From Escherichia coli (GTDB lineage Bacteria; Pseudomonadota; Gammaproteobacteria; Enterobacterales; Enterobacteriaceae), in the NCBI RefSeq assembly GCF_016026235.1, contig NZ_CP065613.1: 64,000 nucleotides of DNA, one strand, 5' to 3'. Of this stretch, positions 38,034-45,347 are shown in pieces. Below the pieces are notes generated by a model that was given only the letters and a program-made list of their open reading frames with translations, made no database searches and was not told the DNA's origin. The first letter of the stretch is position 1; each line of letters starts with the position of its first letter. The position numbers were made by a program, and so were the translations under genes.

Positions 38034-38155
38034 TACTTCTCCGGTTAGTAAGAAATCACGGAAGGAATGCTACCACTGCGAATTTAACCACTTACTGACA
38101 TGGCTCACGATGTCACGTATTGCACAGGCGCTGAGACTGATGACAAACACAGCAT

Positions 38156-38254
38156 TGCCTGATGCGCTACGCTTACCTGGCCTACCAGATAACTGCAATA
38201 TATTGAATTTTCAAAATTATGTAGACCGAATAAGGCTTCATTCCGCATCCGGCA
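38156..38254. repeat. REP/BIME-like palindromic units at the pepE-proximal edge of the sor island
   Basis: TGCCTGATGCGCTACGCTTACCTGGCCTAC ... GTAGACCGAATAAGGCTTCATTCCGCATCCGGC. Confidence 0.65.
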
Positions 38255-38413
38255 TAAACAATGTGCACTTTGCCACCAATTTGAGCGCCCCTTAAGGCGC
38301 TGATATTTTTTATGCTTCTCGTGCAAATTGTGCTGCTTCAGCAATCAGCAGCACATCCGGTCGCGAAGTTGCTGGTGCGACCAGCCAGCGACATGCAGAG
38401 TTGAGTAACGCGA

Positions 38414-39643
38414 TTAATCATGGGAAATTGCCTCTGCATGAGTGAGCAGATATTGCTCCGCCTCACCGGACCAGATCCCCTGATGACGCGCCAGAATCGC
38501 CGCCAGTGCTTGATCCTTAATCTGCGTGAGTGACGTCAGCGGCAGGTATTTCCCGGTATACACCAGCTTTTTGCCGCCGCCGACGGCAGGCAATTCAAGC
38601 GTGGTTTCGCCCGCGGCATTCAGCCCAAGAATATGTGTTACCACTTTTGCGGCCTGCACTTTTTTCTCTTCGATCAGTTTGACCGCCGCGCGCATGTCGT
38701 CGGTATTGCCGCCTGACGTGCCCACGTAGTGGGTAAATGCATAATGCACATCGTAGAAATTAATTGGCGCGCTGAAATGTTTATCCTGCGGTCCGGCGAA
38801 GAAATTCAGGCAACCATCTGTCGCCAGCAAGGAAGAGGCGAGAGTCACCAGTCCTTCATTAGGCACAAAGACGAAAATATCATCGAAGCCGTGACCGCCA
38901 CTCAGCGCCATTAACGTATCAAATGCTGCATCGGTGGCATTGAGATAATGAATCAGTGTTTGCGGTTCTGATGGATAGTGCTTGCGCGCATAACTCAATT
39001 TATCGTTGTCGGTATCGGTAATGACGAGCAGCGACGGGTTAACTGGTCCATGCAGCGCATAATCAATCGCCAACAGTCCCATTGGTCCGGTGCCGCCGAG
39101 GATCAGCGTGCGCCCTTGCGGGCGAATCCCCATCGTGTGGTTATAACTACCTTCCTGAAGATGATAGTTGGCGTTGAACGCGCCAATCACGCAGGAAAGC
39201 GGTTCAACCAGTGAGCCTTCAAAATAGGTTTCGCCGTCGTATGCCAGCAGGCAATCTTGTTCCATGACCTCGTTGGGAATAACCACATGCGTGGCTTCGC
39301 CGCCCACCCACGGGAAGGAGTAGCCGGGGCAGTCCGGGCGGTCGGGGAGTTGCAGGTTGGCCTGAATCACATAACGCTGACCCGGCTGGAATTTGTGCTG
39401 CCACTTTTTACCCAAGGCCAGAATATCGCCGCAAAACTCGTGGCCGATGATGATGGGGTTGGTCGCCACATCGTCGGGTACTTTTTTATGGTTTTCACCC
39501 AGATTGGCCTCTTTCCAGGAAGAGAGGCACAGGCTGTCAGTGACCACCGTCGCGAGGATTTCATCCTCCTGCATTTCAGGAAGGTCAAAGGTTTCCAGGC
39601 GTAAATCACGTTTACCATAAAGACGCAGAGCTGTTGTTTTCAT
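38414..39643 (-). CDS. sorE: L-sorbose-1-phosphate reductase (Zn-dependent MDR-family dehydrogenase)
   Basis: MKTTALRLYGKRDLRLETFDLPEMQEDEILATVVTDSLCLSSWK...; MDR fold (GHEFCG); ATG 39643 preceded by GAGGTGG. Confidence 0.8.
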   Translation of the reverse strand: MKTTALRLYGKRDLRLETFDLPEMQEDEILATVVTDSLCLSSWKEANLGENHKKVPDDVATNPIIIGHEFCGDILALGKKWQHKFQPGQRYVIQANLQLPDRPDCPGYSFPWVGGEATHVVIPNEVMEQDCLLAYDGETYFEGSLVEPLSCVIGAFNANYHLQEGSYNHTMGIRPQGRTLILGGTGPMGLLAIDYALHGPVNPSLLVITDTDNDKLSYARKHYPSEPQTLIHYLNATDAAFDTLMALSGGHGFDDIFVFVPNEGLVTLASSLLATDGCLNFFAGPQDKHFSAPINFYDVHYAFTHYVGTSGGNTDDMRAAVKLIEEKKVQAAKVVTHILGLNAAGETTLELPAVGGGKKLVYTGKYLPLTSLTQIKDQALAAILARHQGIWSGEAEQYLLTHAEAISHD

Positions 39644-39694
39644 AAACCACCTCATGTTGAGCGATGGCCCCGGCAGTCGTGCCGGGGCGAAGAA

Positions 39695-40519
39695 TCAGGA
39701 CAGGAAGCCCAGCGCATTACCGATAATCCCTAAGCCAAACAGGGCGAAAATCAGCCATACCGGGTTAATTTTTTTGTTGAGCAGACGAACCATAAGCAGC
39801 GTCAGACCGAGCGCCAGCAAACCAGGGCAAAGTTGGTCGAGAATGTTCTGCACGGTCATGGTGACGGTGGAGCCATCGGCGGCATGCGTTTGTGAAACCA
39901 CCAACGGTACGTTGATTGACGTCCATTTGGTGACCAGCACGCCCATCACAAACAGTCCGAGAATCGACGCGCCTTCGGTGAGTTTTTGCAGCACATTCCC
40001 GCCCATATCGCTGACGATATTCACCCCTTTGCGAAAGCCGAGCTGTAGGCCATACCACTTCATCGCCAGACGCACCGCATTGAAAATAAAGAAAAACAAA
40101 AGCGGGCCGAGGATGTTGCCAGAAAGTGCCAGAGATGCGCCGAGCGCAGCGGTAATCGGGCGCAGCGTTCCCCAAACCAGTGGATCGCCAACCCCTGCCA
40201 ATGGTCCCATCAGACCGACTTTGATGCCGTTAATGGTACCGTCATCAATTTCCGCGCCGTTGGCCCGCGCCTCTTCCATGGCGGCAGTGACGCCGATGAC
40301 CGGGCCACATACGGCTGGCGTGGTATTGAAGAACACCAGGTGTCGCCTGAGCGCCGCAACCTGATCCTCTTTTAATGGGTAAAGTCGCTTGATGGCGGGG
40401 ATCATGTCGTAGCAAAAGCCCAGCCCGTGAATACGTTCAAAGTTAAAGGACGCCTGTTGCAGGTTGGAGCGCAGAAACATGCTCACCAGATCGCTGCGTG
40501 TAATTTTTCTCTGTTCCAT
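39695..40519 (-). CDS. sorM: PTS mannose/sorbose-family EIID component
   Basis: MEQRKITRSDLVSMFLRSNLQQASFNFERIHGLGFCYDMIPAIKRLYP... typical EIID; ATG 40519 preceded by GGAG. Confidence 0.8.
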   Translation of the reverse strand: MEQRKITRSDLVSMFLRSNLQQASFNFERIHGLGFCYDMIPAIKRLYPLKEDQVAALRRHLVFFNTTPAVCGPVIGVTAAMEEARANGAEIDDGTINGIKVGLMGPLAGVGDPLVWGTLRPITAALGASLALSGNILGPLLFFFIFNAVRLAMKWYGLQLGFRKGVNIVSDMGGNVLQKLTEGASILGLFVMGVLVTKWTSINVPLVVSQTHAADGSTVTMTVQNILDQLCPGLLALGLTLLMVRLLNKKINPVWLIFALFGLGIIGNALGFLS

Positions 40520-40529
40520 GATGGCTCCG

Positions 40530-41327
40530 TTAATCGTCAAGTTGGTCAAGGGCGGTGGAGGTGGTGGCCTGGGGTTGAGGTTCAGCTTTACGCCACTGTG
40601 GATTTAGCTGGATGTAGACCAGGGCCATGATCACGCCGACGCCACCGAACGCCAGCAGACTGAGATCGAGGTAGCCACCTGCGAGGAAACCGAGGAAAAA
40701 GAAAGGCATCAAATATTTCACGCCCATCATACGTAGCACCATGGCGTAACCGACCACCACGATAAAACCGCCAGCAATTTGCAGACCGCGCGTCACGAAT
40801 TCCGGTATCGCGCTCAGCATATTGCTCACCATATCGGCGCTGACGAACAGTGAGACAATCAGTGCCGGAATAGCAACGCGCAGCGCCTGCACGCCAAGCG
40901 CGGAGACATGCAGAATATCGAGAGTGCGAAACCGTGCTTCTTCCGCTGCTTTATCCGCCGCGTGCTGGAACACTACGGTGATGGTACGGGCAAACACAGT
41001 CAGCACCTGGCCTGCCGCAGCCACAGGCAACGCGATGGCGATTCCGGTGGCGATGCTTTGCTGACCAACGATAACCAGAATGGCGGAGATTATGCTGGCG
41101 AGTGCAGAATCCGGAGATTGCGCCGCGCCGACGTTCATCCAGCCGAGAGCTATCAATTCCAGCGTACCACCGAGTATTATTCCGGTTTTTAAATCACCGA
41201 GAATTAAACCAATCACCGTACAGGCAATTAACGGGCGATGAGTCTGGAATTCATCCAGCACGCTGCCCATTCCGGCAATACAGGAAAAAAGAAATATAGC
41301 AATAATTTGTAGGGTACTTATTTCCAT
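40530..41327 (-). CDS. sorA: PTS mannose/sorbose-family EIIC component (265 aa)
   Basis: MEISTLQIIAIFLFSCIAGMGSVLDEFQTHRPLIACTVIGLILG... polytopic EIIC. Confidence 0.8.
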   Translation of the reverse strand: MEISTLQIIAIFLFSCIAGMGSVLDEFQTHRPLIACTVIGLILGDLKTGIILGGTLELIALGWMNVGAAQSPDSALASIISAILVIVGQQSIATGIAIALPVAAAGQVLTVFARTITVVFQHAADKAAEEARFRTLDILHVSALGVQALRVAIPALIVSLFVSADMVSNMLSAIPEFVTRGLQIAGGFIVVVGYAMVLRMMGVKYLMPFFFLGFLAGGYLDLSLLAFGGVGVIMALVYIQLNPQWRKAEPQPQATTSTALDQLDD

Positions 41328-41392
41328 GATTTGTCACCTTTTAAGTGTCGTCATCCCTGCCTGTTAAAGCATATGTACACTGGCGCTATTAT

Positions 41393-41887
41393 TTAATTTG
41401 CGATTAACTGTTCGTTTATTTTGTCGATAATATTGATTGAGGGATCTGACGCTACGACGCGTAAATCCAGTATGACGCCAAGATTATTTAACTCATGAAA
41501 TGCGTTAATATCATCATCATCTAATGAAACCGCTTTGGTTAACTGTTTTTTACCGGGCCGCCAGGCCATGCCGCCAATATTCAGGGTGCCTATTTTTACC
41601 CCCTGGCGAACCATCGCTAAGGCATCCTGTGGGCGAGTGAAAAGATAAAAAACGGTTTCGTCCTGATATTGCGGGTTGTGATAAACCGCGACGGCTTTTT
41701 CAATATTGACCACGTTAACCTTCATTCCCGGTGGCGCAGCCTGACGCAATAATGTCCGGCGAACTTCATCGTTATAAACTTCGTCATTGCAGATAATAAT
41801 GCGCTGGGCGTTAGCCACTTTCGACCAGACGGTAGTGACCTGACCGTGGATCAGGCGGTCATCAATGCGGGCGAGCGTAATGTTCAT
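41393..41887 (-). CDS. sorB: PTS mannose/sorbose-family EIIB component (164 aa)
   Basis: MNITLARIDDRLIHGQVTTVWSK... EIIB-Man signature with phosphorylatable His. Confidence 0.8.
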   Translation of the reverse strand: MNITLARIDDRLIHGQVTTVWSKVANAQRIIICNDEVYNDEVRRTLLRQAAPPGMKVNVVNIEKAVAVYHNPQYQDETVFYLFTRPQDALAMVRQGVKIGTLNIGGMAWRPGKKQLTKAVSLDDDDINAFHELNNLGVILDLRVVASDPSINIIDKINEQLIAN

Positions 41888-42294
41888 CAGAAATCCTCCT
41901 CTGTCGTTGCCAGTTGTTTCCAGACAACGCAGGTTTGCTTTGCGATTTGTGTCAGGTGTTCACACAGTTCATCAACATTCATGCTGTCCTGGTTATCAAC
42001 CAGTTCGAGCGCCAGCGGCAGAGAAAGGCCGCTGATTACCCGCAGACGAGGATTGCGCATCGCAAGCATCGCTGCCGCATTCCACGGGCTGCCGCACTGT
42101 AAATCCACGGCAATCAGCCACTCATCTTGATTGTGAATGCTTACTAACTTTTCCAGCTTTGCTACGATGTCTCCGGCGTTCTCGCCGGGCACAAATTCAA
42201 CTGCCTCGACCCTGGCGTCGCCGTACACCATCTGAACCGATTCCAGCATGGCGCAAGCTAATTTGCCGTGGGCGCAAAAAATGGCATTGACCAT
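41887..42294 (-). CDS. sorF: PTS mannose/sorbose-family EIIA component (135 aa)
   Basis: MVNAIFCAHGKLACAMLESVQMVYGD... EIIA-Man fold; stop overlaps the sorB start by 1 nt. Confidence 0.8.
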   Translation of the reverse strand: MVNAIFCAHGKLACAMLESVQMVYGDARVEAVEFVPGENAGDIVAKLEKLVSIHNQDEWLIAVDLQCGSPWNAAAMLAMRNPRLRVISGLSLPLALELVDNQDSMNVDELCEHLTQIAKQTCVVWKQLATTEEDF

Positions 42295-42303
42295 AAAGCC
42301 TCC

Positions 42304-43110
42304 TTAGCCGCGCGTTTTGCCGCCCGCAATGTTAGTGGTTACTCCGGTGATATAGCTGGCGCGTTCAGACAGCAGATAACAAACAAAATCAGCGACTTCT
42401 GCTAATCTTCCGGCGCGCCCAATAGGAATGGCGTTTTTGGTATAGCCTTCACGCAGCTGCTCGACGGTGATATTGCGCGTCCACGCCAGCGCTTCTTCAT
42501 ATTCCGGCGTGCGCAGTCCTGTTTTTTCCAGAATCCCCGGCGCGATACCGACCACACGGATACCGTGTTTACCCAATTCTTTCGACCAGGATCGCGTGAA
42601 GCTATTAAGCGCGGCTTTGGTAGCGGCGTAACAGCTTTGGCCTTCTGAGCCTTCCAGTCCACTTTCTGAGGAAACATTCACAATCACGCCATCATGTTGT
42701 TTGACCATCTGTCGCGCCACCGCCTGCGACATCAGAAAAACGCCTTTCTGGTTGATATTGAACATTTTTTCGAATGCAGCTTCGTTGAGTTCATACTGCC
42801 CGGCAGGCGCTTTGTCATCGACCAGCAGACGCGGGAAATTGACCCCGGCGTTATTGACCAGACCGTCGATGCGACCAAAACGCTGGATAATTTCCGCTAC
42901 CGTATGATTTACCTCTTTGGCGCTGGAAATATCGGTCGGCCAAAACTGATAGCCTTTATGACCTTCATATTGACCATCGCCACCGTGAATATCTACCATC
43001 TGTACGTTTGCGCCTTGTGCTAATAATTCCTCTACAATCGCCAGACCAATACCGGATGCGCCGCCGGTGACGATAATGATTTTATCCTGCAAATTTAACC
43101 ACGTTTGCAT
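42304..43110 (-). CDS. sorD: D-glucitol-6-phosphate dehydrogenase (SDR family, 268 aa)
   Basis: MQTWLNLQDKIIIVTGGASGIGLAIVEELLAQGANV... with TGGASGIG Rossmann motif and YxxxK. Confidence 0.8.
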   Translation of the reverse strand: MQTWLNLQDKIIIVTGGASGIGLAIVEELLAQGANVQMVDIHGGDGQYEGHKGYQFWPTDISSAKEVNHTVAEIIQRFGRIDGLVNNAGVNFPRLLVDDKAPAGQYELNEAAFEKMFNINQKGVFLMSQAVARQMVKQHDGVIVNVSSESGLEGSEGQSCYAATKAALNSFTRSWSKELGKHGIRVVGIAPGILEKTGLRTPEYEEALAWTRNITVEQLREGYTKNAIPIGRAGRLAEVADFVCYLLSERASYITGVTTNIAGGKTRG

Positions 43111-43179
43111 AACAGACTCCTGATTTTAGATAATAGGGACCCGCCGTAATTTTTATTACGGTAAACATCGGGAAGATTT

Positions 43180-44127
43180 TTATTTCAGTAATAGTTCAGC
43201 TGTGCTGCTATTCGTTACCAGACAATTAATATATTTTCCACGCAGTGCACCAACAATTCCGCTGTATTTTTCTTCACTCATGGCAATGCCAATGGAATAC
43301 CGCGCCTGCTTTAATTTATTCATTTCGATAGAGAGTGTTTTTTCGCTCATATTCGTTTCAACCATTGCGCCGTGAATATCAAAAAAGCGCGAGCAAATAT
43401 CGCCAGCAACCTGGCGGGCATTCAGGTCGTCACTCTCTTCACCACCATAAAACGCATGCCAGTTAGCGCCGTCGCGAATGGCCGGTGAGCCAATTCCCAC
43501 CAGGGCGACATCCAGATTATCCCAGTAGGCAGAGATGGTTTTAAAGTGCTGAGACTGCATGATCCCATTACGAATTAATGGGTTATCCAGCAGAGCCGGA
43601 AAATCCGCGAGATGCGATTCCCCTTTCAGCTTCGCTGCCGCGCTGTAGGTTAATGTGTTTACGTGATAGCGGCTTTCGAGTTTACCGGACGGTCCGCCAA
43701 TAATTGGTACGCAGATTAACTGCCGCGATTGCCCCGCCTGCGGCAAGTTTTCAACCAGTGCGCTCACCGCGCGACCCCAGGAAAAACCGACAATATCGCC
43801 AGGTTCCAGCAAGCGATCCAGCAGTTGCGCGCCGTGTAACCCCATCATCGCCAGTTGAGTCTCTTCATCCTCATCATTTCCCGACACCACCACAACGTCT
43901 TTCAGGCCAAACTTTTGCTTCAGTTGCTGCTCCAGCCAGAGATTTTCGTTGTAGTCATAGTTGATGGCGATGGTGACAATTCCCTGATCGCGGCCTCGTT
44001 TAAGCAAGCGGCTGATGGTGGTGCGGTAAATACCCAGTTCGAGCGCGATTTGCGCCTGCGTCATATCCTGTTCGTAATAGAGTTGGGCAATCTTCACAAT
44101 CAAACGGATATCGTCACTGTTTTCCAT
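43180..44127 (-). CDS. sorC: SorC-family sugar-binding regulator of the sorbose operon (315 aa)
   Basis: MENSDDIRLIVKIAQLYYEQDMTQAQIALELGIYRTTISRLLKRGRDQG... N-terminal HTH; ATG 44127 preceded by AGGAGG. Confidence 0.8.
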   Translation of the reverse strand: MENSDDIRLIVKIAQLYYEQDMTQAQIALELGIYRTTISRLLKRGRDQGIVTIAINYDYNENLWLEQQLKQKFGLKDVVVVSGNDEDEETQLAMMGLHGAQLLDRLLEPGDIVGFSWGRAVSALVENLPQAGQSRQLICVPIIGGPSGKLESRYHVNTLTYSAAAKLKGESHLADFPALLDNPLIRNGIMQSQHFKTISAYWDNLDVALVGIGSPAIRDGANWHAFYGGEESDDLNARQVAGDICSRFFDIHGAMVETNMSEKTLSIEMNKLKQARYSIGIAMSEEKYSGIVGALRGKYINCLVTNSSTAELLLK

Positions 44128-44474
44128 TGCCGCCTCCTGGTTCTGCACATTTGTGCAAATACGCTTTCTCACCGCTTGATCTGATATAACCCCATCATGA
44201 GGGCCTTTCAAAGCGATTTTTCACTCTTTGCATGGGGAGAAATAGCGCTTTCTCTTGCACATTTGTTTCTCTGCGTAGTAGTCATCAGCACAGGTGTGCA
44301 GCGATTCGTAATATGTTGATTATCCTTATTTTGCCAGGCAAATTTGCATCGTACTTCCGGAGACACTTTTGTGATAAAAGGCGTGGCAGATCACATTTAA
44401 TTTCGACGTTGCCGCATAACCCTGTTTTTCCCCGCTAAGAGGTACGGTATATTCCGCGTTTTACAGGAGAATTT

Positions 44475-45347
44475 ATGCTGCCCGACTCATCAGTCCGTTT
44501 AAATAAATACATCAGCGAAAGCGGAATTTGCTCACGCCGCGAAGCGGATCGCTATATCGAGCAAGGCAATGTGTTCCTTAATGGCAAGCGAGCCACCATT
44601 GGCGATCAGGTGAAACCCGGCGACATTGTGAAAGTAAACGGTCAGTTGATTGAGCCTCGGGAAGCCGAAGATTTGGTACTTATCGCCCTGAACAAGCCCG
44701 TCGGTATTGTCAGCACCACCGAAGATGGCGAGCGCGATAACATTGTCGATTTCGTTAACCACAGCAAACGCGTGTTCCCGATTGGCCGCCTGGATAAAGA
44801 CTCCCAGGGGCTGATTTTCCTCACCAATCACGGCGATCTGGTGAATAAGATCCTCCGTGCGGGTAACGATCATGAGAAAGAGTATCTGGTGACGGTAGAT
44901 AAACCGATTACCGATGAATTTATTCGTGGTATGGGGGCGGGAGTGCCGATCCTCGGGACGGTGACGAAAAAGTGCAAAGTCAAAAAAGAAACTCCGTTTG
45001 TCTTCCGCATTACCCTGGTGCAGGGGCTGAACCGTCAGATCCGTCGCATGTGCGAGCATTTCGGCTATGAAGTGAAAAAGCTGGAACGTACGCGCATTAT
45101 GAACGTCAGCTTAAGCGGCATTCCGCTGGGAGAATGGCGCGATTTAACCGACGACGAGCTTATCGATCTCTTTAAGCTCATCGAAAATTCCTCTTCCGAG
45201 GCAAAACCTAAAACGAAGGCCAAACCGAAAACGGCGGGCATCAAACGTCCAGTCGTTAAGATGGAAAAAACGGCGGAAAAAGGCGGTCGCCCGGCGTCCA
45301 ACGGTAAGCGTTTTACCTCGCCGGGGCGTAAAAAGAAGGGGCGCTAA
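44475..45347 (+). CDS. rluF: 23S rRNA pseudouridine synthase RluF (290 aa)
   Basis: [45 protein letters not shown]... S4 domain + RsuA-family catalytic core. Confidence 0.93.

What the first reader, a model, noticed from the sequence alone, without database searches (positions are those of the whole stretch)
44140..44272. Repeated palindrome-containing motifs upstream of sorC: candidate SorC operator
Just upstream of the sorC start codon (ATG 44127, SD AGGAGG) lies TGCACATTTGTGCA (44145..44158), an inverted repeat TGCAC-N4-GTGCA, followed by CGCTTTCTC (44162..44170). About 85 bp further the same two modules recur in swapped order (CGCTTTCTC 44246..44254; TTGCACATTTGT 44255..44266). Repeated half-sites at this spacing resemble operator sets of sugar-responsive repressor-activators and are the best candidate binding sites for SorC.
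Basis: inference. Interest (0 to 1): 0.35.

Follow-up and report, generated by a model that had tools for sequence, protein, structure and literature searches.

The report
Predicted SorC operator boxes, sorbose operon

Summary
The repeats exist. From this sequence alone they are weak evidence: a 9-mer direct repeat arises in 18% of shuffles and an 11-mer in 2.3%.

Comparison of about 30 orthologous sor promoters from 12 enterobacterial genera, including K. pneumoniae, settles most of it.
- The proximal palindrome P (TGCACAAATGTGCA) is essentially invariant.
- Its partial copy M (44255-44268) keeps only the half CAAATGTGCAA.
- D-P spacing is 143 bp in all but one taxon that has D. In Kluyvera, M-P is 11 bp shorter, one helical turn.
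- The CGCTTTCTC module is at or below background conservation and differs even among E. coli strains.

The same box occurs upstream of Firmicute SorC homologs that are only 42-48% identical but share the recognition helix (I)YRT(T/S)ISR. It is missing from remote paralogs with other helices. The box resembles the B. subtilis DeoR operator palindrome (12 of 16 bases).

Verdict: this is a well-supported computational prediction of the SorC operator, which the literature I could reach does not define. The sites flank the predicted promoter, which suggests repression by looping and activation from upstream. Binding, looping and the transcription start remain untested. It is a new member of a known kind, of moderate interest.

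The parts
43180..44127 (-). sorC, the first gene of the sor operon. It encodes a 315-aa regulator of the SorC/DeoR subfamily. Its SD AGGAGG lies at 44133-44138.
   Evidence: Translation. Pfam Sugar-bind plus an N-terminal HTH. E = 1.9e-182 to PDB 2w48, K. pneumoniae SorC. RefSeq annotates the same start in E. coli E2865.
44144..44157 (.). Box P (proximal): TGCACATTTGTGCA, a perfect 6-N2-6 palindrome with 12-bp core GCACA-NN-TGTGC at 44145-44156. It lies 17-30 nt upstream of the ATG and abuts the SD in most genera. It is about +20 to +33 from the predicted transcription start.
   Evidence: Exact in 25 of 28 sequences. The other three have one change each: Kluyvera TGCACATATGTGCA and Serratia AGCACAAATGTGCA. 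It carries 1.98 of 2 bits. It is also present in K. pneumoniae. No SNPs were found in it in the sampled E. coli.
44255..44268 (.). Box M (middle). In sorC orientation it reads nnnCAAATGTGCAA. Only the promoter-proximal half is conserved (plus strand TTGCACATTTG, 44255-44265). It is a full palindrome in Kluyvera (TTTGCACAAACGTGCAAA). Its centre is 112 bp from P.
   Evidence: The right half carries 1.79 bits. Kluyvera has M-P = 101 bp, an 11-bp deletion.
44287..44300 (.). Box D (distal): AGCACAGGTGTGCA, with core GCACAGGTGTGC at 44288-44299. Its centre is 31 bp from M and 143 bp from P.
   Evidence: It is the only 1-mismatch match to the 14-mer pattern in the 64-kb window, and an exact match to the 12-bp core. 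GCACA...GTGC is kept in all non-Kluyvera taxa while the central bases vary. The only E. coli SNP in it (44294) is at a central degenerate position.
44363..44374 (.). Block U2: ACACTTTTGTGA (sorC orientation TCACAAAAGTGT; ACACAAAAGTGT in most genera). It is a nearly invariant CAC-N4-GTG palindrome lacking the outer G:C pairs. It may be a weak fourth SorC box or a site for another factor. It lies 19 bp from the CRP-like site.
   Evidence: family D1; 1.52 bits. In Pantoea and Enterobacter it reads ...CACAAAAGTGC, closer to the box. The assignment is an inference.
44183..44211 (-). Predicted core promoter between M and P: -35 TTGAAA (44211-44206), a 17-bp spacer, -10 TATATC (44188-44183), and a predicted start near 44176. 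It is embedded in the invariant block GGTTATATCAGATCA (44191-44177).
   Evidence: Read from the sequence and the conservation pattern (the -10 block carries 1.84 bits). The simple scan did not report it because position 6 of the -10 is C. Kluyvera, whose upstream region is only about 225 bp, retains just M, this block and P. The transcription start is not mapped.
44309..44321 (-). IHF-like core AATCAACATATTA (WATCAANNNNTTR), preceded by a conserved A-rich tract. It lies between U2 and D.
   Evidence: Exact consensus match. The conservation pattern fits: ATCAA and TTA are kept and the four central bases vary. It is also present on the Serratia plasmid copy. Binding is not tested.
44377..44398 (-). 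CRP-like site AAATGTGATCTGCCACGCCTTT. The left half is perfect and the right half partial. It matches the 22-bp consensus at 16 of 22 positions by direct comparison.
   Evidence: TGTGATC is invariant across genera. It has more than 3 mismatches to the full consensus. It travels with the sor operon on the Serratia plasmid. It would be centred near -211 from the predicted start, which is atypical.
44338..44348 (.). Block X: GCAAATTTGC(A), a conserved TGCAAnTTTG element with no assigned function.

Best explanation
The boxes P (44144-57), M (44255-68) and D (44287-300), and perhaps the degenerate U2 (44363-74), are the operator sites of SorC, the regulator encoded by the first gene of the operon. 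The consensus is (T)TGCAC-AWWT-GTGCA(A), with core GCACA-NN-TGTGC.

Proposed mechanism:
- Each box is read by a pair of homeodomain-like HTH domains of the SorC dimer-of-dimers tetramer.
- D and M lie upstream of the predicted weak promoter (TTGAAA-17-TATATC), at about -117 and -86. P lies between the predicted start and the ribosome-binding site, at about +26.
- Without sorbose, SorC tetramers bridge P with M/D. This closes a 112-143-bp loop over the promoter and represses the operon, sorC included.
- With inducer, the dimer-dimer bridging is lost, as in CggR. SorC remaining on D/M then helps RNA polymerase at the poor -10, probably together with CRP and an IHF-induced bend further upstream.

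Shown here: the existence, specificity and conservation of the boxes and of their spacing, and their co-occurrence with the SorC-type recognition helix. Inferred: SorC binding itself, the position of the promoter, looping, and activation from D/M. The CGCTTTCTC repeat is not part of the operator.
For: 1. Conservation amid diverged flanks in 28 sor promoters from 12 genera: P 1.98 bits, right half of M 1.79, D 1.47, against a background of 1.15. The same layout is found in K. pneumoniae, whose SorC is 99.7% identical to the crystallised protein.
2. Specificity. Boxes with 0 or 1 mismatch: 59 lie within 310 bp upstream of the 30 loci with a YRTTISR-type helix, against 3 elsewhere in about 190 kb. 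Only 2 were found in 14 remote paralog loci. In the 64-kb window the only exact cores are P and D.
3. The box follows the DNA-binding helix, not the pathway. Firmicute homologs at 42-48% identity with GIYRTTISR or IYRTSISR carry GCACAATTGTGC or GCACAAATGTGC upstream, beside unrelated sugar genes. There the boxes come in pairs 19-20 bp apart and overlap TATAAT-type promoters. A Y-to-N helix variant has TGAGC half-sites instead.
4. Family logic. SorC belongs to the SorC/DeoR subfamily. The idealised box TTGCACAAATGTGCAA matches the B. subtilis DeoR left operator palindrome TTGAACAAAATTTCAA at 12 of 16 positions (sequence from PMC11229326).
5. Constrained spacing. D-P is 143 bp in every taxon that has D except Serratia H1w (144). 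The only change in M-P length is 11 bp, in Kluyvera.
6. Literature. SorC is a tetramer with two DNA-binding-domain pairs (PMC2943609). It regulates sor both positively and negatively (Wohrl et al. 1990, cited).
7. E. coli SNPs avoid the specified box positions.
Against: - No binding data exist in any paper I could reach.
- The promoter is only predicted. Its -10 has C at the normally invariant last position, and the simple scan found no promoter.
- M-P (112 bp, 10.7 turns) and D-P (143 bp, 13.6 turns) are not integral numbers of 10.5-bp turns.
- The enterobacterial sites lack the compact two-half-operator arrangement of roughly two helical turns (18-23 bp) seen for DeoR, CggR and the Firmicute homologs. 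The SorC crystal was judged compatible with sites about two turns apart.
- M has only one conserved half.
- CRP would sit about 211 bp upstream of the predicted start, which is unusual.
- The helix/base covariation rests on one example.
Confidence: 0.72

Rival explanations
1. The boxes are SorC sites, but they act independently with no loop. P is a simple downstream roadblock or occlusion operator responsible for repression, like the CggR operator between the start site and cggR. D/M are separate activator sites used when sorbose is present.
For: P sits between the predicted start and the SD, like the CggR operator at +32 to +77 (PMC11229326; PMC2943609). The M-P and D-P distances are not integral numbers of helical turns. 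The Firmicute homologs manage with adjacent boxes only.
Against: D-P is fixed at 143 bp across genera whose spacer sequence has diverged. The single M-P length variant differs by exactly 11 bp. These facts are easier to explain if the sites cooperate. P has no partner box 18-23 bp away, although the family normally needs two half-operators for stable binding: DeoR half-operators alone did not bind (PMC11229326).
Confidence: 0.25
2. One reading: a composite operator of two modules, the palindrome plus CGCTTTCTC, each repeated in swapped order about 85 bp apart, with both bound by SorC.
For: Both motifs are exactly repeated in this window.
Against: A 9-mer repeat appears in 18% of shuffles. The 9-mer positions score 0.80 and 1.02 bits against a background of 1.15. 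They read differently in Citrobacter, Klebsiella and Raoultella, and even in E. coli E69 and SCPM.
Confidence: 0.04
3. The boxes are bound by a different transcription factor, for example a global regulator, rather than by SorC.
For: No direct binding data link SorC to the boxes. The region also carries CRP-like and IHF-like sites, so other factors clearly act here.
Against: The box co-occurs with SorC-type regulators in both Enterobacteria and Firmicutes, whatever the neighbouring genes, and is absent next to remote paralogs. It resembles the operator of the homologous DeoR DNA-binding domain. It is not enriched elsewhere in the 64-kb window.
Confidence: 0.06
4. P acts at the RNA level, as a small 5'-UTR hairpin next to the SD that controls translation or mRNA stability. 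Its resemblance to the upstream copies would then be incidental.
For: P would be transcribed if the predicted start is right. It can form a 7-bp hairpin immediately 5' of the SD.
Against: The fold is no better than shuffled sequence (z = -0.88). There is no Rfam match. There are no compensatory changes: the Serratia variant breaks the outer pair. The same sequence recurs at M and D upstream of the promoter, and over the promoters of the Firmicute homologs.
Confidence: 0.04

Closest known systems
B. subtilis DeoR operator of dra-nupC-pdp (SorC/DeoR subfamily)
   Same: The DNA-binding domain is homologous: SorC IYRTTISRLLKR against DeoR ISRPTVSRLLQY. The palindrome has the same size and geometry, TTGCA-N6-TGCAA against TTGAA-N6-TTCAA, with 12 of 16 bases identical. 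One full palindrome is combined with a partner that keeps only part of the symmetry. The regulator is a tetramer (PMC11229326).
   Different: DeoR uses one compact 39-bp operator at -60 to -21, with its halves about 23 bp apart, and is a pure repressor. The sor region has three or four boxes spread over 143-218 bp on both sides of the predicted promoter, with no partner 18-23 bp from any box. SorC is reported to be both activator and repressor. The half-site differs at one base.
B. subtilis CggR operator of the gapA operon (SorC/CggR subfamily)
   Same: The regulator is the first gene of the operon it controls. An operator lies between the transcription start and the regulator's start codon. 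A tetramer bridges two dimer sites, and the inducer breaks the dimer-dimer contacts (PMC2943609).
   Different: CggR has a winged-helix DNA-binding domain. Its motif is a different direct-repeat type (CGGGAC-N6-TGTC). Its operator is compact (45 bp), and it has no upstream sites and no activator role.
Classical looping operator sets of sugar operons (gal OE/OI, ara O2/I1, lac O1/O3, E. coli deo)
   Same: Operators flank the promoter at about 100-150 bp. The regulator is multivalent and the spacing is constrained. In the AraC case one protein both represses by looping and activates.
   Different: The protein families are unrelated, and looping is not demonstrated here. This comparison rests on my own knowledge of those systems, not on a tool result.
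E. coli LsrR (SorC/DeoR subfamily) at the lsr intergenic region
   Same: It is the closest E. coli paralog with a solved structure. It is a tetramer and has a homologous helix, LTRLKVSRLLEK.
   Different: Its recognition helix differs, so its sites presumably do too. I did not retrieve its operator sequence, so no comparison of the sites was made.

Membership tests
Operator of a SorC/DeoR-subfamily regulator | The cognate regulator has the homeodomain-like HTH plus the NagB-like sugar-binding domain | tested here: met
   Pfam Sugar-bind (1.5e-80) plus an N-terminal HTH. PDB hits to SorC 2w48, DeoR 8r7y/7bhy and LsrR.
Operator of a SorC/DeoR-subfamily regulator | A palindromic half-operator of about 14-16 bp suited to a DNA-binding-domain dimer | tested here: met
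   P is a perfect 6-N2-6 palindrome and D is 5/6-N2-6. The idealised box matches the DeoR OL palindrome at 12 of 16 positions (sequence).
Operator of a SorC/DeoR-subfamily regulator | Two half-operators about two helical turns (18-23 bp) apart, bound cooperatively by one tetramer | tested here: not met
   In enterobacterial sor promoters the nearest pair (D-M) is 31 bp apart, and P has no conserved partner within 18-23 bp. The feature is met in the Firmicute homologs, at 18-20 bp.
Operator of a SorC/DeoR-subfamily regulator | Demonstrated binding of the regulator, relieved or altered by its effector | not testable with these tools
   This needs EMSA or footprinting. No such data were found in the papers held.
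Operator of a SorC/DeoR-subfamily regulator | The motif co-occurs with orthologous regulators across taxa (the comparative-genomics criterion) | tested here: met
   59 of 62 box hits lie directly upstream of the regulator gene in 30 loci. The box is absent from remote paralog loci. It is also present in the additional K. pneumoniae, Serratia plasmid and Priestia loci.
DNA-looping operator set | Operators on both sides of the promoter | tested here: inconclusive
   This is true only for the predicted promoter (TTGAAA-17-TATATC, 44211-44183). No mapped start site was found.
DNA-looping operator set | The inter-operator distance is constrained, and changes come in whole helical turns | tested here: met
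   D-P is 143 bp in all but one taxon that has D (144 in Serratia H1w). M-P is 112 bp, or 101 bp in Kluyvera. However, 112 and 143 bp are not integral multiples of 10.5.
DNA-looping operator set | Physical loop formation by a multivalent regulator | not testable with these tools
   The tetrameric state of SorC is taken from the literature (PMC2943609). Looping itself is untested.
CRP binding site | TGTGA-N6-TCACA at an activating distance from the promoter | tested here: inconclusive
   The left half AAATGTGATCT is perfect and invariant. The right half is ACGCC, with C16 and C18 kept. It matches at 16 of 22 positions by direct comparison and has more than 3 mismatches. It is centred about 211 bp from the predicted start.
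IHF binding site | Core WATCAANNNNTTR with an upstream A/T tract | tested here: met
   AATCAACATATTA at 44309-44321. The conservation pattern fits the consensus. Binding is not testable here.
cis-regulatory RNA element | A significant or covarying structure, or a match to a known family | tested here: not met
   z = -0.88. No Rfam hit at E <= 1.

The most novel reading that the evidence does not exclude
SorC, the founding member of its family, does not use the compact tandem operator of about 40 bp seen for DeoR and CggR. Instead it uses a dispersed operator of three or four boxes that brackets the promoter, joining an invariant box in the 5'-UTR to boxes 112-143 bp upstream. A single tetramer would switch between a repressing loop and an upstream activating complex, with help from CRP and IHF. 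That would be an AraC-like logic not yet described for this family. The shared box in Firmicute relatives, together with the Tyr-to-Asn helix variant that pairs with TGAGC half-sites, would give a first recognition code for the subfamily.
Probability: 0.35. Interest if true: 0.55.

Novelty: new member of a known kind. Interest (0 to 1): 0.4.

Why it matters
SorC gave its name to a widespread family of sugar-responsive regulators, and its full-length crystal structure has been available since 2009. Even so, the papers I could reach state that family operators were identified only for B. subtilis DeoR and CggR (2010). A 2024 structural paper on the family still describes operators in detail only for those two and cites LsrR binding-site work. 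None prints this box.

A defined box, with three conserved positions around the promoter, makes the old genetic finding of positive and negative regulation by SorC directly testable. It gives structural biologists a cognate DNA for SorC. It also provides a sorbose-responsive promoter map for an operon carried by about half of E. coli and recently linked to fitness and virulence (PMC13410766).

It remains a computational prediction of transcription-factor sites of a familiar kind.

Tried and rejected
- **Sigma-70 and terminator scan of 44050-44550.** Nothing was reported. The promoter proposed here fails the scan's requirement for T at position 6 of the -10.
- **Full CRP consensus with up to 3 mismatches.** No hit. 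The site is only CRP-like.
- **RNA-level explanations.** The fold z-score is -0.88 and there is no Rfam hit. Rejected.
- **An alternative distal promoter.** I considered a -10 GATAAT at 44324-44319 with CRP at about -74. I set it aside because Kluyvera lacks that whole region yet keeps M, the TTGAAC-17-TATACC block and P. The GATAAT block also fits the IHF consensus better.
- **A degenerate partner box 18-23 bp from P, M or D in Enterobacteria.** None is conserved.
- **Literature.** Six full-text searches found no SorC operator, footprint or mapped sor start site. The de Sanctis 2009 paper is not held. The Wohrl 1990 and Wehmeier & Lengeler 1994 papers never appeared in the searches and were not looked up by id, so prior description there cannot be excluded.
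- **Exact 2W48 sequence.** It is not on record in the contig index. K. pneumoniae was reached instead through the plasmid collection.
- **Ungapped comparison of E. coli E69 and SCPM beyond about 44330.** It is invalid because of a 1-nt indel. Only differences below that point were used.

Full report
**1. Observation**

The window carries the sorbose operon on the minus strand. The genes are sorC 43180-44127, then an SDR dehydrogenase, PTS IIA/IIB/IIC/IID and sorE, lying between pepE and rluF.
- TGCACATTTGTGCA is at 44144-44157, one base earlier than stated. It is a perfect 6-N2-6 palindrome.
- TGCACATTTGT recurs exactly at 44256-66, and CGCTTTCTC at 44162-70 and 44246-54.
- From this sequence alone the case is weak. 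In shuffles of the 312-bp region, a direct repeat of 9 or more bases arises in 18%, one of 11 or more in 2.3%, and a perfect 6-bp-arm palindrome in 28%.
- A third copy, AGCACAGGTGTGCA, sits at 44287-44300. It and P are the only matches with 0 or 1 mismatch to TGCACANNTGTGCA in 64 kb.

**2. Context**

The 347-bp sorC-rluF spacer is present in full in 2863 of 5426 complete E. coli genomes. The other genomes align only from 44440 onward. In a sor-negative strain, window 38115-44439 (6325 bp) is replaced by 95 unrelated bases. All of 44128-44439 therefore belongs to the sor segment. RefSeq annotates nothing in the spacer.

**3. Comparative footprint**

One scan of species-representative genomes returned 27 enterobacterial sor loci with SorC 70-100% identical. 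They cover Escherichia, Pseudocitrobacter, Citrobacter, Klebsiella, Raoultella, Mangrovibacter, Serratia, Pantoea, Cedecea, Entomohabitans, Kluyvera and Enterobacter. It also returned more distant homologs.

Positions of the boxes, in sorC orientation:
- P (TGCACAAATGTGCA) lies 30-34 nt before the ATG in every locus. It is exact in 25 of 28 sequences, and the other three have one change each.
- D (nGCACAnnnGTGCn) lies at -173 to -177 in all but Kluyvera.
- M lies at -142/-143 and keeps only CAAATGTGCAA.

Information content over 26 taxa, with a maximum of 2 bits:

| Element | Bits |
|---|---|
| P | 1.98 |
| Right half of M | 1.79 |
| D | 1.47 |
| Intergenic background | 1.15 |

- Next to P the 9-mer reads GCAATTTCG, GCAAATATG or GCAAGAGTG in other genera. 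Both copies differ in E. coli E69 and SCPM.
- In five other sor+ E. coli the SNPs avoid all specified box positions.
- D-P is 143 bp in every taxon that has D except Serratia H1w, where it is 144.
- Kluyvera has a short upstream region of about 225 bp. It keeps only a fully palindromic M (TTTGCACAAACGTGCAAA), the promoter-like block and P, with M-P shortened from 112 to 101 bp.
- K. pneumoniae, whose SorC is 99.7% identical to PDB 2w48, has P at -30, M at -142 and D at -173.
- A conjugative Serratia proteamaculans plasmid carries the sor operon with the whole regulatory region and the 143-bp spacing, away from rluF.

**4. Link to SorC**

- SorC has the Sugar-bind domain and an N-terminal HTH. 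Its closest solved relatives are K. pneumoniae SorC, B. subtilis DeoR and E. coli LsrR. That places it in the SorC/DeoR subfamily, whose DNA-binding-domain dimers read palindromes and which assembles as tetramers (PMC11229326).
- Firmicute homologs at 43-48% identity share the helix GIYRTTISR. They carry GCACAATTGTGC, perfect in Terrilactibacillus and Paenibacillus, followed 19 bp later by a right half-site around a TATAAT-like -10. Pseudalkalibacillus has two boxes 20 bp apart, abutting the SD. Their neighbours are Gfo/Idh/MocA and RpiA-like genes, not sorbose genes.
- A Priestia plasmid regulator at the head of a gutM-glucitol PTS operon (42% identical, helix IYRTSISR) has GCACAAATGAAC and GCACAAATGTGC 19 bp apart.
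- A Priestia homolog with the helix INRTSISR has GCTCATTTATTC and GAACAAATGAGC instead. This hints at covariation between helix and base, but it is a single case.
- Across all loci, boxes with 0 or 1 mismatch fall 59 times within 310 bp upstream of these regulators and 3 times elsewhere in about 190 kb. Fourteen loci of remote paralogs (25-33% identical, different helices) have 2 hits in total.
- Parsed as TTGCA-N6-TGCAA, the box matches the DeoR left palindrome TTGAACAAAATTTCAA at 12 of 16 positions (sequence).

**5. Other conserved blocks**

- A CRP-like site at 44377-98. Its left half is perfect and it matches the consensus at 16 of 22 positions.
- U2, ACACAAAAGTGT, at 44363-74. It is box-like but lacks the outer G:C pairs.
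- TGCAAnTTTG at 44338-48, with no assigned function.
- An exact IHF core, AATCAACATATTA, at 44309-21, with variation confined to its NNNN positions.
- AAAATnGCTTTG, followed by the invariant GGTTATATCAGATCA at 44177-91.

I read TTGAAA (44211-06), a 17-bp spacer and TATATC (44188-83) as the promoter, with a start near 44176. That puts P at about +26, M at -86.5 and D at -117.5. This is an inference. The scan tool found no promoter and I found no mapped start site.

**6. Mechanism**

Established background:
- SorC regulates sor both positively and negatively (Wohrl et al. 1990, as cited in PMC2943609).
- Its crystal tetramer presents two pairs of DNA-binding domains.
- In CggR the inducer breaks the dimer-dimer bridging.

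The most economical model is that SorC binds P, M and D. Without sorbose, tetramers bridge P with M/D over the promoter. With sorbose, the bridging is lost and SorC on D/M activates the weak promoter, aided by CRP and IHF.

The fixed spacing and the 11-bp variant favour cooperation between the sites. Two facts argue for caution: the distances are not integral numbers of helical turns, and there is no compact operator of roughly two helical turns (18-23 bp).

An RNA hairpin role for P is not supported. The fold z-score is -0.88, there is no Rfam hit and there are no compensatory changes.

**7. Novelty**

- PMC2943609 (2010) states that operators in this family had been identified only for DeoR and CggR.
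- The 2024 structural paper still describes operators in detail only for those two, and cites LsrR work.
- No paper held prints the box.
- The 1990/1994 Lengeler-laboratory papers and the 2009 structure paper were not available, and RegPrecise could not be consulted. Prior description cannot be excluded.
- I rate this a new member of a known kind: a well-supported operator prediction for a known regulator. Its dispersed architecture would be a modest novelty for the family.

Noticed in passing
window 38115-44439: The whole sor operon and its regulatory region form a presence/absence polymorphism in E. coli. 2863 of 5426 complete genomes carry it. Sor-negative strains have 95 unrelated bases between the same pepE and rluF flanks. 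In Klebsiella, Citrobacter, Raoultella and others the sor operon also lies next to rluF, so loss in some E. coli lineages is as plausible as insertion.
   Followed up: partly
window 44178-44181 and 44389-44392: Two GATC (Dam) sites are invariant across genera. One lies at the predicted transcription start inside the GGTTATATCAGATCA block. The other lies inside the CRP-like TGTGATC. A possible methylation-sensitive element was not examined.
   Followed up: no
window 44363-44398: The CRP-like site and the U2 palindrome ACACAAAAGTGT are 19 bp apart centre to centre. That equals the box-to-box spacing in the Firmicute homologs. In E. coli the two together read TGTGA-N16-TCACA. The function is unassigned.
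   Followed up: partly
L053 (Priestia megaterium plasmid pPmC-142-5), 60-100 nt upstream of the regulator at 2516: This SorC homolog has the recognition helix INRTSISR (Tyr to Asn). Its paired boxes have TGAGC/GCTCA half-sites instead of TGTGC/GCACA. This may be protein-DNA specificity covariation, but it is a single example.
   Followed up: partly
L054 (Priestia megaterium NCT-2 plasmid pNCT2_2), -69 and -50 from the regulator start at 2501: A SorC-like regulator 42% identical heads a gutM plus glucitol/sorbitol PTS operon. It carries the exact enterobacterial box GCACAAATGTGC and a second box 19 bp upstream.
   Followed up: partly
L055 (Serratia proteamaculans conjugative plasmid NZ_MT039215.1): A complete sor operon start (sorC, SDR dehydrogenase, PTS IIA) with the whole regulatory region of about 310 bp is carried on a conjugative plasmid. 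This shows the module is mobile.
   Followed up: partly
L004-L030, 6 nt upstream of the aligned ATG: In most genera an in-frame ATG lies 6 nt upstream (ATGGCGATGGAA or ATGACGATGGAA), with GGAG directly abutting box P. The true start codon may therefore differ from that of E. coli, where AGGAGG precedes the ATG at 44127. In those genera P overlaps the ribosome-binding site.
   Followed up: no
L045 2569-3392 (E. coli E2865): In strain E2865 the PTS IID gene of the sor operon is annotated as frameshifted. The spacer of this strain is 100% identical to the window. The window's own IID ORF (39695-40549) is open.
   Followed up: no
L021 (Entomohabitans teleogrylli), -303 from sorC: An extra box, GCACATCCGTGC, lies 129 bp upstream of D, beyond the CRP-like block. 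It may be an additional operator in that genus.
   Followed up: no
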